Shown here: positions 39,789-44,890 of the stretch, piece after piece
Numbering within the stretch: the first letter of the stretch is position 1
How the letters are laid out: each line of letters opens with the position of its first letter
Source of the DNA: Candidatus Saccharimonadales bacterium
Lineage (GTDB): Bacteria; Patescibacteriota; Saccharimonadia; Saccharimonadales; JANWIN01
DNA length: 64,000 nt
Assembly: GCA_038231155.1 (NCBI GenBank)
Contig: JBBRLY010000013.1
Span: 68,305-132,304, forward strand
Direction: 5' to 3'
The notes under the pieces: model-generated
The model's input: only the letters and a program-made list of their open reading frames with translations
The model's database searches: none
What the model was told of the DNA's origin: nothing
Translations under genes and position numbers: made by a program

Positions 39789-39841
39789 ATGAAACTAATT
39801 TGTAAATAGTTAGTAGTTCGAATCTGTGATTTAATGTGCTT

Positions 39842-40111
39842 ATGACAAAAACCAAAAAACGTCAGGTGACTGAACTTGATCGAGTTTATCTTTTGAAAAT
39901 AGTTATTTATCTAATTTTAGGTTCATTTTGGATTAAAATCTCTAGTCAAACGACAAATTGGCAAGTACCAATTCCAGTGGGATTTATAGCTGGAATAGTC
40001 CTTGCAAGTCGCGATAAATTTCAAATAGACCGTAAACTAGAATACGCTATATTACTGATGGCGATGTTTATTGGGTTCTGGTTACCGATTGGTATAAAGA
40101 TTAGCTTCTAA
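39842..40111 (+). CDS. orphan ~89-aa 3-TM membrane protein between rpsJ and rplC
   Basis: Hydrophobic segments VYLLKIVIYLILGSFWI, IPVGFIAGIVLA, AILLMAMFIGFWLPIGI. TGATTTAAT (39827-39835) lies 6 nt before the ATG. A GTG at 39836 is an alternative start. Confidence 0.5.
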   Translation: MTKTKKRQVTELDRVYLLKIVIYLILGSFWIKISSQTTNWQVPIPVGFIAGIVLASRDKFQIDRKLEYAILLMAMFIGFWLPIGIKISF

Positions 40112-40138
40112 AGTATATGTAGTAGAATTCTCAACACA

Positions 40139-40181
40139 TTGACAGATGTATCATTAGTCTGCTAATCTGTATTGGTATATT
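40139..40181 (+). promoter_or_regulatory. candidate promoter(s) for the rplC-led remainder of the S10 operon
   Basis: TTGACA at 40139-40144 with TAATCT at 40163-40168 (N18). There is also an extended -10, TGGTATATT, at 40173-40181. Confidence 0.4.
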
Positions 40182-40199
40182 AAATTCGGGACACATATT

Positions 40200-40253
40200 C
40201 TTGGTGAACCAGCAGGCCTCAAACCTGGGAACCGTTGGTCACCAAGCATTTTT
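40200..40253 (+). terminator. long imperfect hairpin plus U-run in the rplC leader (terminator or attenuator)
   Basis: CTTGGTGA (40200-40207) pairs with TCACCAAG (40239-40246). An inner CAGG/CCTG helix is present, followed by CATTTTTAT. It lies 38 nt upstream of GTG 40291. Confidence 0.5.
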
Positions 40254-40290
40254 ATAGCAGTCTCAAATGATACATAAGAGGTAAATATTA

Positions 40291-40899: not shown

Positions 40900-41543
40900 T
40901 GGCTATTTTGACTTATACCAAGACCGGCAATAAAGCTACAACTGCTGCTAAGCTCAACAAATCAGTTTTTGGGCTGGAAGTTAAGAGCCATGATTTATTA
41001 AAACAAGCCTATTTAACTTTATTGGGAAATAGCCGAGTCAATCTAGCGGTTACTAAAAAGCGTGGTGAAGTAAGGGGTGGCGGACGCAAGCCTTGGCGCC
41101 AGAAAGGCACTGGTCGCGCCCGATTTGGCTCTAGCCGTAACCCAATATGGCGCGGCGGCGGAATTGCGTTTGGTCCGACTGGCCAGGAAACTTATAGTCG
41201 TAAATTAAATACAAAGGCGAACCGTCAAGCTATTCGTCAAGCCTTATCACTTTCTGCAGATAGTGGCAAGATTAAAGTCATCGAGACATTTGAATGTAAA
41301 GACGGCAAAGTTGGCCCGACTCTTAAACTAATCAAAAAAATGGATATAGTCGGTAACATTCTTATAGTTGTAAGCCAAAAAGACCAGTTAGTTAAACGAG
41401 CTACCGATAATATTCCAGATATTAAGGCCGTTCAAGTTAACTTTTTAAATGTTTTTGAAATCCTCAATGCCGACCATATAGTAATTAGCCAAAAATCTCT
41501 TGACGTTATAAACAATTGGCTCGGTCAAAAGGAGCAAAAATAA
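40899..41543 (+). CDS. rplD: ribosomal protein uL4
   Basis: GGGRKPWRQKGTGRAR. Confidence 0.95.
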   Translation: MAILTYTKTGNKATTAAKLNKSVFGLEVKSHDLLKQAYLTLLGNSRVNLAVTKKRGEVRGGGRKPWRQKGTGRARFGSSRNPIWRGGGIAFGPTGQETYSRKLNTKANRQAIRQALSLSADSGKIKVIETFECKDGKVGPTLKLIKKMDIVGNILIVVSQKDQLVKRATDNIPDIKAVQVNFLNVFEILNADHIVISQKSLDVINNWLGQKEQK

Positions 41544-41914
41544 TGGCTAGGCTAATTTTTCTTAAACCGCGTCTTAGTGAAAAATCGTATGGTCTAAGCC
41601 AACAGACGAATACTTACGTGTTTGACGTACCTAAAAATACCAATCGGCTTTCAGTAGCTTTAGCCATACAAGATCAATACCAAGTCACCGTTGAAAAAGT
41701 AAACATTGCTAATATTAACGGTAAGCGCAAACGAACCTTTATAAGTCGTCGTGGCAAATTCGTGCGTGGTACTCGCTCAGATGTTAAAAAAGCTTACATA
41801 ACTCTTAAAGAAGGTGATAAATTACCAGTTTTTGCTGCTGAAGAAGAGGCTGAAGCTAAGGAAGTCAAAGCCGTAGAAAAAGCTGCTAAAAAAGCTGCCA
41901 AGGAGACCAAGTAG
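41543..41914 (+). CDS. rplW: ribosomal protein uL23 with AEK-rich C-terminal tail
   Basis: Start at ATG 41543 overlapping the rplD TAA. uL23 core, then AAEEEAEAKEVKAVEKAAKKAAKETK. Confidence 0.9.
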   Translation: MARLIFLKPRLSEKSYGLSQQTNTYVFDVPKNTNRLSVALAIQDQYQVTVEKVNIANINGKRKRTFISRRGKFVRGTRSDVKKAYITLKEGDKLPVFAAEEEAEAKEVKAVEKAAKKAAKETK

Positions 41915-42747
41915 TGGCTATTAAAGCTTATAAACCAACAACTCCTGGGCAACGCGGCATGACTACCCAAGATTTGAGTGAAATTACTACTAATAAACCA
42001 CTTAAGTCATTGTTGGTAGCTAAAAAAGCTGGTAGCGGGCGCAATAATACCGGTCGTATTACCGTAAGACACCGCGGTGGTGGCGTAAGACGATTTTATC
42101 GAATGGTGAACTATGGTTTGTCAGAAGGAGTTAACGCCGTAGTAGAGCAAATTGAATACGATCCTAATCGAAGTGCTAGAATTGCCCGGATTAAAGACGA
42201 TACCGGGACTTATCACTATATTATTGCTGCTAAAGGTATGAAAGTTGGTCAAAAGATTGCTAGCGGTCAAAACGCAGCAATCGAAAATGGAAATCGATTA
42301 ACATTAAAAGATACCCCGGTTGGCAGCAATATATATGCGGTTGAGTTACAACCTGGAGGTGGTGCTCAATTAGGACGAAGTGCCGGCGCCAGTATCCAAT
42401 TAGTAGCCAAAGAAAACGGCTGGGCCCAGATTAAATTACCTAGTGGAGAAATCCGAATGGTTTCAGAGCTTTGCATGGCACATTTAGGTAGTGTTGGCAA
42501 TGAACAGCATCAGAACATTAAAGTTGGAAAAGCTGGCCGTACGCGTAAGAAAGGATTTCGTCCCACTGTTCGCGGTGTAGCTATGAATGCTGCCGATCAT
42601 CCACATGGTGGAGGAGAAGGTAAAGGCAAAGGTAACAATCATCCAACCTCACCTTGGGGTCAACCAACTTTGGGTTATAAGACACGCCGCCGCAAGAGTA
42701 CCAATAAATTCATCATTAGAAGCCGACATGCGAGCAAGAGGAGATAA
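41914..42747 (+). CDS. rplB: ribosomal protein uL2
   Basis: ...MNAADHPHGGGEGK... Confidence 0.95.
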   Translation: MAIKAYKPTTPGQRGMTTQDLSEITTNKPLKSLLVAKKAGSGRNNTGRITVRHRGGGVRRFYRMVNYGLSEGVNAVVEQIEYDPNRSARIARIKDDTGTYHYIIAAKGMKVGQKIASGQNAAIENGNRLTLKDTPVGSNIYAVELQPGGGAQLGRSAGASIQLVAKENGWAQIKLPSGEIRMVSELCMAHLGSVGNEQHQNIKVGKAGRTRKKGFRPTVRGVAMNAADHPHGGGEGKGKGNNHPTSPWGQPTLGYKTRRRKSTNKFIIRSRHASKRR

Positions 42748-42748
42748 A

Positions 42749-42991
42749 ATGGCAGAGACAGCGGAACAAAGACTAGCTATACGTGAAACATATGAATCTG
42801 GTCGTCAAGAAGGCCAGCGTTTATTAACCCAGTTTACATTTGATGAACGACGTTATCTTGAGGTTAATGTTGCCAGAAAGTTAATCAATGCTGATGGTCT
42901 AGAACAAAACTATCATCAAGGAATTTGGCACGCTGTTAACGATACACCTTTAAGCATAGTTAAAGACATAATCAATAAGGCTAAATCATGA
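42749..42991 (+). CDS. orphan 80-aa ORF between rplB and rpsS
   Basis: SD GAGGAG at 42737-42742. ATG is 1 nt after the rplB stop. The stop overlaps the rpsS start (ATGA). [26 protein letters not shown]... No recognisable family. Confidence 0.6.
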
Positions 42992-43266
42992 GTAGATCTC
43001 TTAAAAAAGGACCATTCGTAGATCCTAAATTGGCCAAAAAGATTGATGCTTTGGGAAGTGAAGATCGTACAATTGTTAAAACCTGGGCTCGGGCATCAAC
43101 TGTGGCACCTGAATTTGTTGGACGAACCATCGCTGTACACAATGGCAAAGTTCATGTGCCAGTCTTTATCACTGAAAATATGGTTGGTCATAAACTTGGT
43201 GAGTTTTCACCAACCCGTAAGTTTAGAAGTCATGGTGGTAAGTTAGCGAAAGCGGAGAGTCGATAA
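42988..43266 (+). CDS. rpsS: ribosomal protein uS19
   Basis: ...[25 protein letters not shown]... Confidence 0.95.
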
Positions 43267-44272: not shown

Positions 44273-44685
44273 TGTTAATGCCCAAGCGACAGAAATACCG
44301 TAAGGTCCGAAAAGGTCGAATAAATGGCACTGCTTCTCGCGGCAATTACATCGCTTTTGGTGATTTTGCCTTGCAGGCTCAAGGCAACCAGCGAATTAAT
44401 TCACGCCAAATTGAAGCGGCTCGTCAAGCTATGACACGCTACGTTAAACGCGGTGGTAAAATCTGGATCCGCATATTCCCGCATACACCAGTGACTCGTA
44501 AACCTCAGGACGTTAAAATGGGCAGCGGCAAAGGCAATCCAGAGTTTTTTGTTGCTAAAGTTAGCCCTGGAACAGTTTTATTTGAAATGCAGGGTGTCGG
44601 CGAAGAAGTGGCAAGAGAAGCTATGCGTTTAGCGGCTCATAAATTACCAGTTAAGACTAAGTTTTTAATCAAGGATGAGGTGTAG
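44272..44685 (+). CDS. rplP: ribosomal protein uL16
   Basis: [11 protein letters not shown]... Confidence 0.95.
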
Positions 44686-44689
44686 AAAT

Positions 44690-44890
44690 ATGAAAATTAC
44701 CGAAATCCGCAAAATTAGCACAATAGAATTGACTAAAGAAACTTCCAAGCTAAGAGATGAGATAATTCAGCTAAAGCGTGGTTTATATAGTGGCGAAACG
44801 CAAAATGTCAGGATATTACGCCATAAGCGTAAAGACTTAGCTCGAATGTTGACGGTTCTTAGTGAACAGTTAGCCAAGGAGAACTTGTAA
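44690..44890 (+). CDS. rpmC: ribosomal protein uL29
   Basis: MKITEIRK...LRDEIIQLKR. ATG 44690 after SD GGATGAGGTG. Confidence 0.9.
   Translation: MKITEIRKISTIELTKETSKLRDEIIQLKRGLYSGETQNVRILRHKRKDLARMLTVLSEQLAKENL

What the first reader, a model, noticed from the sequence alone, without database searches (positions are those of the whole stretch)
42749..42991. Orphan 80-aa gene translationally coupled between rplB and rpsS
Seen directly: a good SD (GAGGAG, 42737-42742) is followed by an ATG 1 nt after the rplB stop, and the ORF's stop overlaps the rpsS start as ATGA. The product [80 protein letters not shown] matches no family I recognise.

Established knowledge: the rplB-rpsS junction in the S10 operon is among the most conserved gene adjacencies in bacteria.

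Inference: a gene inserted here is co-expressed stoichiometrically with ribosomal proteins. It could be a lineage-specific ribosome-associated factor or a new ribosomal protein.
Basis: partly seen in the sequence, partly recalled or inferred. Interest (0 to 1): 0.6.

Follow-up and report, generated by a model that had tools for sequence, protein, structure and literature searches.

The report
Fast-evolving small gene in ribosomal operon
The 80-codon reading frame wedged between ribosomal genes rplB and rpsS is a real gene from a small, fast-evolving, uncharacterised protein family of Saccharibacteria, and about a third of related genomes carry some small acidic gene at this normally invariant junction.

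Summary
rplB ends with TAA at 42745-42747. An ATG at 42749 opens an 80-codon frame whose TGA (42989-42991) overlaps the rpsS ATG (42988).

The gene is not an orphan. An exhaustive HMMER search found 17 other clusters of 76-104 aa. All ten contexts examined sit between rplB and rpsS in Saccharibacteria. The family shows coding constraint, and AlphaFold2 predicts a confident four-helix fold (pLDDT 90). It matches nothing in Pfam, NCBIfam, PHROGs, PADLOC or PDB.

The junction is a hotspot. Of 79 related genomes, 26 carry a small ORF there, in about 20 mutually unrecognisable sequence types across the 35 slot ORFs collected. Nearly all are coupled at both ends, and all 34 tested are acidic, whereas neighbouring ribosomal proteins have pI 9.8-11.6. 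In 57 more distant bacteria the junction is at most 115 nt and holds no gene.

The product evolves much faster than its neighbours (35% against 80% identity). The cultured Southlakia epibionticum ML1 has an empty slot.

Most likely it is a dispensable acidic accessory protein made at ribosomal-protein levels, not a core ribosomal protein. Its function is unproven.

The parts
41914..42747 (+). rplB (uL2), 277 aa. Its last codons (…SKRR-TAA) contain the SD used by the slot gene.
   Evidence: Pfam L2_N 1e-25, L2_C 6e-50. 527 relatives were confirmed.
42736..42743 (+). Shine-Dalgarno AAGAGGAG (core GAGGAG at 42738-42743), 5 nt upstream of the slot-gene ATG. The same AAGAGGA motif ends rplB in every Saccharibacteria locus examined, whether the next gene is a slot ORF or rpsS.
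42749..42991 (+). Slot gene X: 80 codons plus TGA, encoding a family-A small acidic protein predicted to form four helices (residues 5-28, 31-47, 50-63, 68-79).
42728..42730 (+). Upstream in-frame ATG that automatic gene callers used (87-aa product, overlapping rplB by 20 nt). It is probably not the true start.
   Evidence: compared with the N-termini of homologues.
42791..42814 (+). Codons 15-22, YESGRQEG: the aromatic-xx-G-x-xx-G helix motif. G18 is invariant in the family.
   Evidence: A similar motif is enriched in other slot ORFs.
42917..42931 (+). Codons 57-61, QGIWH: the most conserved block of the family (Q57 and G58 are invariant).
42977..42980 (+). AAGG, a weak SD for rpsS inside the 3' end of X, 7 nt before the rpsS ATG. 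Most other slot ORFs carry GGAG at this position.
42988..42991 (+). ATGA: the rpsS start codon overlapping the X stop codon, a termination-reinitiation junction.
   Evidence: The same 4-nt overlap occurs in 19 of 34 slot ORFs and an 8-nt overlap in 10.
42988..43266 (+). rpsS (uS19), 92 aa.
   Evidence: Pfam S19 5.5e-35.

Best explanation
X is a genuine protein-coding gene. It is one member (family A) of a Saccharibacteria-specific accessory gene slot between rplB and rpsS.

Expression (inferred from the sequence). Ribosomes finishing uL2 at the UAA reinitiate one base downstream at AUG 42749, using the AAGAGGAG embedded in rplB's last codons. Ribosomes finishing X at the UGA reinitiate on the overlapping rpsS AUG (AUGA). 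X is therefore made at roughly ribosomal-protein levels and passes ribosomes on to rpsS.

Product. It is a small, mildly acidic, cytoplasmic protein. It has no signal peptide by inspection and is predicted to form a four-helix bundle.

Evolution (shown). The family diverges very quickly, is often lost by clean excision, and in other lineages is replaced by unrecognisably different small acidic ORFs with identical coupling. Some or all of these may be one ancient, hyper-divergent gene.

Function (inferred, unproven). It is a dispensable accessory partner of the very basic translation components with which it is co-synthesised. It could be an escort or charge-neutralising binder of uL2 or uS19, or a peripheral ribosome-associated factor. 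It is not a core structural ribosomal protein.

The confidence given is for the whole statement including the functional inference. The parts 'real gene, conserved family, fixed slot, coupling architecture' taken alone I hold at about 0.9.
For: Real gene.
- Only 0.2% of shuffles keep the frame open.
- Codon statistics match the genome's genes.
- 17 other 76-104 aa clusters align with invariant G18, A42, Q57, G58 and L68.
- pN<pS, and substitutions rank position 2 < position 1 < position 3, in all 21 pairs.
- The AlphaFold2 model has pLDDT 90.4 and pTM 0.77.

Fixed location. All ten contexts examined lie between rplB and rpsS, and there are no paralogues elsewhere in the window or the loci.

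Coupling. 33 of 34 slot ORFs start within -4 to +4 nt of the rplB stop. 29 of 34 end 4 or 8 nt into rpsS, with a GGAG-like SD upstream.

Hotspot.
- 28 of 79 GTDB Saccharibacteria loci have a gap of at least 100 nt, and 26 of those hold a gene-like ORF.
- With six slot-selected loci added, 34 of 85 loci have such a gap here, against 0-9 loci at the other junctions downstream of rplC.
- None of 57 more distant loci has a gene at the junction.

Shared selected property. All 34 slot ORFs tested have pI below 7 (median 4.9). The comparison figures are 26% of window ORFs, 8% of open shuffles of slot DNA, and pI 9.8-11.6 for the neighbouring r-proteins.

Fast evolution. Identity averages 35% against 80% for S19+L22+S3 in the same genome pairs. 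In L082/L168 the figures are 24% against 87%.

Clean presence/absence. L020 and L022, at 84% nucleotide identity, differ by exactly the ORF.

Possible common ancestry. The motif [FYW]xxG-phi-xxG occurs in 8 of 20 non-A types (4.06 per 1000 aa, against 0.06 in window proteins). It also occurs out of sample in an S19-L22 insert of L024. Family A helix 1 carries YESGRQEG.
Against: - There is no direct evidence of transcription, translation or ribosome binding.
- The function rests on gene position and charge. Ribosomal operons also host genes unrelated to the ribosome, such as adk (general knowledge).
- Cross-family homology is not detectable: hhalign probabilities are all below 5%, and phmmer, blastn and alternative-frame comparisons find nothing.
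- The motif was defined after looking at the data, and a motif HMM reaches family A only at E of about 1.
- The AlphaFold2 model of family B is poor (pLDDT 61.6), so a shared fold is untested.
- Most relatives lack any slot gene, including the cultured S. epibionticum ML1. Any role is therefore non-essential for the clade.
- dS is saturated, so no reliable dN/dS value exists.
Confidence: 0.45

Rival explanations
1. Hitchhiker. X is a functional small protein whose job has nothing to do with the ribosome, for example an immunity-, anti-toxin- or anti-phage-like binder or a host-interaction modulator. It sits in the S10 operon only because the site gives strong constitutive expression in a promoter-poor, reduced genome. 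Its rapid turnover would reflect an arms race.
For: - Divergence is extreme and the distribution patchy.
- Many unrelated-looking types occupy the same site.
- Each 90% cluster looked up has a single member.
- The gene is dispensable in the clade.
- Small acidic helical proteins are typical of immunity and anti-defence proteins (general knowledge).
Against: - There are no hits in PADLOC or PHROGs, in phage or plasmid records, in IMG/VR or in BFVD folds.
- No partner toxin or effector gene is adjacent, since both neighbours are r-proteins.
- This reading does not explain why one junction of one operon is strongly preferred, or why all occupants are acidic.
Confidence: 0.3
2. Spacer ORF. The reading frame is kept open mainly so that ribosomes travel from rplB to rpsS and translational coupling survives an insertion. 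The peptide itself has little function and is selected only to be harmless, meaning acidic, soluble and not RNA-binding.
For: - The two-sided coupling is uniform whatever the sequence.
- There are many unrelated sequence types.
- The frame can be cleanly excised.
- Acidity could simply reflect avoidance of toxicity.
- Some genomes have AT-rich repeat spacers spanned by short frames, such as L077.
Against: - Family A keeps invariant residues and a confident fold across 18 clusters at about 37% identity.
- Nonsynonymous change is lower than synonymous change in every pair.
- Family B is also conserved, with 11 invariant columns in 6 proteins.
- A pure spacer would be expected to shrink, yet lengths stay at 76-122 aa.
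Confidence: 0.1
3. New structural ribosomal protein. X is a stoichiometric, lineage-specific component of the Saccharibacteria ribosome.
For: - It sits in the S10 operon with tight coupling on both sides.
- CPR bacteria have reduced ribosomes and about half the usual number of biogenesis factors, which leaves room for lineage-specific components (abstract of PMC12641178).
Against: - It is not basic: pI 6.1 against 9.8-11.6.
- It evolves far faster than r-proteins.
- About two thirds of close relatives lack it, including cultured ML1.
- There is no sequence or fold match to any chain of solved ribosomes in the PDB.
Confidence: 0.08
4. Not a protein gene. It is a chance ORF, a cis-regulatory RNA, or the scar of a mobile cassette.
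For: It is short, has no annotation, and was found at first only in its own genome by the word-indexed search.
Against: - The chance of an open frame is 0.002, and it has protein-level homologues.
- The RNA fold z-score is -0.46, and there is no Rfam hit in the window apart from three tRNAs.
- There are no flanking repeats of note.
- Promoter and terminator matches are at chance level.
- Its composition is native to the genome.
Confidence: 0.02

Closest known systems
Non-ribosomal genes embedded in bacterial ribosomal-protein operons (secY, adk, map and infA in the spc operon; general knowledge)
   Same: A gene that is not a ribosomal protein sits inside a ribosomal-protein operon, is co-transcribed with it and is closely packed against its neighbours.
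   Different: Those genes are ancient, slowly evolving, nearly universal and of known function. X is clade-restricted, hyper-divergent, often absent, and interrupts a junction (rplB-rpsS) that stays closed in the 57 more distant bacterial loci examined. Published surveys of this operon cluster describe insertions mainly between operons (PMC8046335).
Lineage-specific small ribosomal proteins (bTHX, bS22, bL37; general knowledge)
   Same: They are small proteins restricted to particular lineages and tied to the translation machinery.
   Different: Those proteins are very short, basic and RNA-buried, and conserved within their clade. X is acidic to neutral, folds as a four-helix bundle, is variable and is dispensable. 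No homology was found.
Dedicated ribosomal-protein chaperones or escorts of eukaryotes (Acl4 for uL4, Yar1 for uS3, Sqt1 for uL16; general knowledge)
   Same: The proposed logic is the same: an acidic partner, made alongside a highly basic r-protein, shields it before assembly.
   Different: No bacterial example is known. The folds differ (TPR, ankyrin and WD40 against a small four-helix bundle). No homology or interaction was tested here. This is an analogy for a hypothesis, not a classification.
The conserved small membrane-protein gene between rpsJ and rplC in the same operon (window 39836-40111)
   Same: It is another Saccharibacteria-specific small gene of unknown function inserted in the S10 operon.
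   Different: That gene is recognisably conserved, at 40-67% identity in at least 31 loci. It is hydrophobic by inspection and not tightly coupled. The rplB-rpsS slot turns over its contents.

Membership tests
Any curated protein family (Pfam-A, NCBIfam, PHROGs, PADLOC) | A profile-HMM match above the curated cut-off | tested here: not met
   The best Pfam hit is DUF6363 at 13.5 bits (cut-off 26.4, E 0.066). The best NCBIfam hit is 12 bits against a cut-off of 286. All 18 family members were scanned with nothing consistent. 22 other slot ORFs gave no Pfam hits.
Any solved structure or fold | Significant sequence or structural similarity to a PDB chain or a viral predicted structure | tested here: not met
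Structural ribosomal protein | Conserved presence across the clade whose ribosome it would belong to | tested here: not met
   Only 26 of 79 related genomes have any slot gene, and 4 of the 80 GTDB loci have family A. S. epibionticum ML1 has L2 and S19 3 nt apart.
Structural ribosomal protein | Basic, RNA-binding composition and slow evolution like other r-proteins | tested here: not met
   pI is 6.1 (4.5-6.8 across the family) against 9.8-11.6 for neighbours. Identity is 35% against 80%.
Structural ribosomal protein | Physical presence in purified ribosomes | not testable with these tools
   This needs ribosome proteomics or cryo-EM from a slot-bearing strain.
Translationally coupled operon gene | Start within a few nt of the upstream stop with an SD in the upstream gene, and stop overlapping the downstream start | tested here: met
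   The sequence reads TAA-A-ATG with AAGAGGAG 5 nt upstream, and ATGA at the rpsS junction. The same architecture holds in 33 of 34 starts and 29 of 34 ends of slot ORFs. Actual coupling was not measured.
Family A (the family defined here by alignment A1) | Full-length match to the A1 profile, length of about 80 aa, and location between rplB and rpsS | tested here: met
   The window ORF scores 114-116 bits (E 1e-33 to 9e-37) against the A1 profile. All ten contexts examined are in the slot.
Single slot superfamily uniting family A with the other slot ORFs | Detectable homology or a shared fold between families | tested here: inconclusive
   hhalign probabilities are at most 4.8%. The motif [FYW]xxG-phi-xxG is enriched about 70-fold but was defined post hoc, with one out-of-sample occurrence. 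The motif HMM reaches family A at E 0.7-1.9. The family B model is too poor to compare.
Toxin-antitoxin or immunity pair | An adjacent cognate toxin or effector gene | tested here: not met
   Both neighbours are rplB and rpsS in every locus.
Mobile cassette (integron-like or IS remnant) | Flanking inverted or direct repeats, an attC-like site, or foreign composition | tested here: not met
   Only chance-level 10-12 nt repeats were found. Codon composition is native. The L020/L022 indel has no repeats beyond ATG(A).
cis-regulatory RNA of ribosomal operons | An Rfam match or unusually stable, conserved structure | tested here: not met
   There is no Rfam family at gathering score in the operon. 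The fold z-score is -0.46.

The most novel reading that the evidence does not exclude
The rplB-rpsS slot may encode one ancient, hyper-divergent superfamily of small acidic proteins. These would physically engage the Saccharibacteria translation apparatus, either bound to the ribosome or escorting uL2 or uS19. Closely related strains would then carry different, or no, versions of a ribosome-associated component. The variability might be driven by conflict with ribosome-targeting toxins, phages or hosts. This would be a strain-variable, operon-encoded ribosome accessory of a kind not described in bacteria.
Probability: 0.2. Interest if true: 0.85.

Novelty: categorically new. Interest (0 to 1): 0.62.

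Why it matters
The rplB-rpsS adjacency is among the most stable in bacterial genomes. Here one phylum-level lineage of ultra-small epibiotic bacteria repeatedly keeps, replaces or deletes a small acidic gene exactly at that junction. The gene is always wired for ribosomal-protein-level expression.

If the products bind ribosomes or ribosomal proteins, they would be the first strain-variable, operon-encoded ribosome accessories in bacteria. They would also bear on how CPR bacteria assemble ribosomes with about half the usual number of biogenesis factors (PMC12641178).

If the families are unrelated, the site is a natural test bed for gene birth and turnover under enforced translation.

Either way the question can be tested. 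S. epibionticum ML1 is naturally competent and genetically tractable, and it has an empty slot (PMC10633639).

One caveat applies. 'New' here means no detectable relative and no description found in the searchable literature. No function has been demonstrated.

Tried and rejected
- **Word-indexed homology search with X alone.** It found only X itself, and the profile version found 7. The exhaustive HMMER search was needed.
- **P0015.** This 1046-aa hit (E 4e-4) was rejected as spurious. The protein is low-complexity and hhalign gives probability 0.1.
- **Metagenome scans for close relatives, to obtain an unsaturated dN/dS.** The single-protein scan found none. Alignments A1 and A2 were too variable to build patterns. 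The S19-based scan gave new slot variants but no close relative of the window.
- **Structure of family B from locus sequences.** After a homology search it ran, but the model is low-confidence, so the shared-fold test failed.
- **Frame-shifted versions of the same DNA (overprinting).** No alternative-frame or nucleotide similarity between families was found.
- **Vertical-descent test.** The correlation of X identity with r-protein identity is weak (rho 0.18, not significant), because X is saturated.
- **Yae1/FliH-like GxxxG repeats.** The resemblance of the YxxGxxxG motif was only a recollection. Pfam gave no such hit.
- **Phage, plasmid or defence origin.** Nothing was found.
- **Literature.** No paper describing a gene between rplB and rpsS in Saccharibacteria or CPR was found.

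Full report
**1. The observation**

The sequence and the ORF table show rplB at 41914-42747 (TAA at 42745-42747). One base follows, then ATG at 42749 opens 80 sense codons. The TGA at 42989-42991 overlaps the rpsS ATG at 42988 (ATGA).

It is part of AAGAGGAG inside the last rplB codons, 5 nt before the ATG. Pfam confirms uL2 and uS19.

The frame is unlikely to be open by chance, since only 0.2% of shuffles keep it open. Its codon statistics are those of the genome's own genes. GC by codon position is 0.55/0.35/0.24, against 0.53/0.38/0.31 genome-wide. The in-frame model beats both shifted frames by 35-40 nats.

Automatic callers used an upstream ATG at 42728, giving 87 aa. Homologue N-termini and the SD favour 42749.

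**2. Organism and family**

The closest uL2 relatives are all Saccharibacteria (TM7) MAGs, the best at 77% identity.

X hits no Pfam, NCBIfam, PHROG or PADLOC model and no PDB sequence. The word-indexed search found only X itself. An exhaustive HMMER scan of 1.84 billion cluster representatives found 17 further clusters of 76-104 aa, at E from 1e-12 to 9e-4. One 1046-aa hit was spurious.

The alignment (A1) has invariant G18, A42, Q57, G58 and L68. Its conserved blocks are ETxEQRxxIRExYxxGRxEG, LExxxAxxLI and QGxW[HY].

All ten contexts I could examine lie between rplB and rpsS. One of them holds X plus a second 97-aa ORF. No paralogue exists elsewhere in the window or in any fetched locus.

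**3. Evidence that it is a protein under constraint**

I compared seven family-A coding sequences. In all 21 pairs pN is below pS, and differences rank codon position 2 < position 1 < position 3. dS is saturated, so dN/dS values are unreliable.

The region shows no RNA-structure signal (z = -0.46) and no Rfam family. It has no flanking repeats of note, and promoter and terminator matches are at chance level.

**4. The junction is a hotspot**

- Of 79 GTDB Saccharibacteria loci holding both genes, 28 have at least 100 nt between rplB and rpsS. 26 of these are filled by one plus-strand ORF of 51-172 aa. L069's 113-aa ORF was recovered. L057 and L077 are AT-rich repeat spacers.
- With six slot-selected loci added, 34 of 85 loci have a gap of at least 100 nt at rplB-rpsS. 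The other junctions downstream of rplC have 0-9 such loci, and the rpsJ-rplC junction always has one.
- An S19-seeded metagenome scan gave 3 more slot ORFs among 16 Saccharibacteria-like loci. It gave none among 57 more distant loci, whose largest gap is 115 nt.
- The architecture is uniform. 33 of 34 ORFs start -4 to +4 nt from the rplB stop, behind the same AAGAGGA. 29 of 34 end 4 nt (ATGA) or 8 nt (ATGTCTAGA) into rpsS, with a GGAG-like SD 8-12 nt upstream.
- That SD explains the recurrent G-V/G-E residues near the C-termini.

**5. The contents are diverse**

A1 recognises only 4 of the 80 GTDB loci (the window's own copy, L001, aside). All-against-all phmmer defines family B, and weaker pairs C, D and E, plus about 14 singletons. 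Counted by eye from those calls, that is about 20 types in 35 ORFs.

hhalign finds no cross-family relation, with every probability below 5%. Alternative-frame and nucleotide comparisons also find nothing.

Family B is itself a conserved family of six proteins with 11 invariant columns, in the same context. Its AlphaFold2 model is too weak (pLDDT 61.6) to compare folds.

**6. What the occupants share**

All 34 slot ORFs tested are acidic (median pI 4.9, maximum 6.3). For comparison:
- 26% of window ORFs of at least 120 aa are acidic;
- 8% of open shuffles of slot DNA are acidic;
- the neighbouring r-proteins have pI 9.8-11.6.

The motif [FYW]xxG-phi-xxG, often preceded by Pxx, occurs in 8 of 20 non-A types. 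That is 4.06 per 1000 aa, against 0.06 in window proteins and 0.38 matching sequences per shuffle round. Family A helix 1 has YESGRQEG.

The motif was defined post hoc. It does recur out of sample, in a coupled 98-aa ORF at the S19-L22 junction of L024 (YVEGMKVG). A motif HMM reaches family A only at E of about 1. A single hyper-divergent superfamily is therefore plausible but unproven.

**7. Tempo and turnover**

Family-A identity averages 35% where S19+L22+S3 of the same genome pairs average 80%. L082 and L168 are 87% identical in r-proteins but 24% in X. At that rate homology would be lost between most Saccharibacteria.

A rough NJ tree shows patchy presence. L020 and L022, at 84% nucleotide identity, differ by a clean 282-nt indel that is exactly the ORF. 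Each of the five 90% clusters looked up has a single member.

The genetically tractable S. epibionticum ML1 has S19 at 439891-440154 and L2 at 440158-440994, so its slot is empty (PMC10633639 supplement).

**8. Interpretation**

Shown:
- X is a real, conserved gene with a fixed position and a two-sided coupling architecture.
- It belongs to a clade-specific hotspot.
- All occupants are acidic.
- Divergence is very fast and the gene is dispensable.

Inferred:
- X is expressed at ribosomal-protein level by termination-reinitiation.
- It has an accessory role tied to the basic translation components, as an escort or binder of uL2 or uS19 or as a peripheral ribosome factor.

A core ribosomal protein is unlikely because of its charge, rate of change and patchy presence. 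The rivals are a hitchhiker with a non-ribosomal function, a coupling-preserving spacer ORF, and a true new r-protein.

No searchable paper describes this. Surveys of this operon cluster report insertions mainly between operons (PMC8046335).

**9. Verdict**

'Orphan' is wrong. 'New ribosomal protein' is not supported, and 'ribosome-associated factor' remains open. The wider pattern, a hypervariable, acidic, doubly coupled gene slot at rplB-rpsS in Saccharibacteria, is the more interesting result.

Noticed in passing
window 39836-40111 (+): A 91-aa hydrophobic ORF lies between rpsJ and rplC. It is conserved at 40-67% identity in at least 31 Saccharibacteria loci, and the S10-L3 gap is at least 100 nt in all 34 loci that hold both genes (median 570 nt). 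S. epibionticum ML1 has a hypothetical gene at the same position (SEML1_0475, 321 nt) that Tn-seq scored as non-essential. Homology to the window ORF was not tested.
   Followed up: partly
window 40112-40290: About 180 nt with no ORF lies between that small membrane-protein gene and rplC, inside an otherwise tightly packed operon. It could hold a regulatory leader or an internal promoter. There is no Rfam hit.
   Followed up: no
L024 S19-L22 junction; L031 L22-S3; L013 S17-L14: Acidic, translationally coupled small ORFs also occur occasionally at other junctions of the same operon: 98 aa (pI 5.9), 109 aa (pI 5.2) and 72 aa (pI 4.1). The L024 ORF carries the YxxG-phi-xxG motif, and L024 also has a slot ORF at rplB-rpsS.
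   Followed up: partly
L057 3837-3945; L077 3837-3989; L071 3838-3923 (also L055 and L074 at several junctions): Some Saccharibacteria genomes with locus GC of 0.48-0.51 (measured for L057, L077 and L071) have AT-rich tandem-repeat spacers of 100-220 nt at many junctions of the S10 operon, for example CAATTCCCAATTCCCAATTCCC. This is a separate phenomenon from the gene slot.
   Followed up: partly
JGI 3300050046 contig carrying P0012 (no DNA available): One family-A locus has two ORFs in the slot: the 79-aa family-A gene followed by an unrelated 97-aa ORF before rpsS.
   Followed up: no
L020 3856-4138 compared with L022 3856: Two genomes at about 84% nucleotide identity differ by a clean 282-nt presence/absence of exactly the slot ORF. 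Only ATG(A) is shared at the two boundaries.
   Followed up: yes
L082 2501-2740 compared with L168 1501-1815: Two family-A genes are only 24% identical although the adjacent S19+L22+S3 are 87% identical. This is far faster divergence than in other family-A pairs.
   Followed up: no
L157 1488-1601: In a more distant, GC-rich (by inspection) bacterial locus, a 37-aa basic ORF exactly spans a 115-nt rplB-rpsS gap. It may be chance.
   Followed up: no
window 41516-41914 and 44675-44890: The listed ORFs for rplW (TTG 41516, against a probable ATG at 41543) and rpmC (ATG 44675, against 44690) begin upstream of the likely true starts. Mechanical ORF starts in this operon therefore need checking.
   Followed up: no
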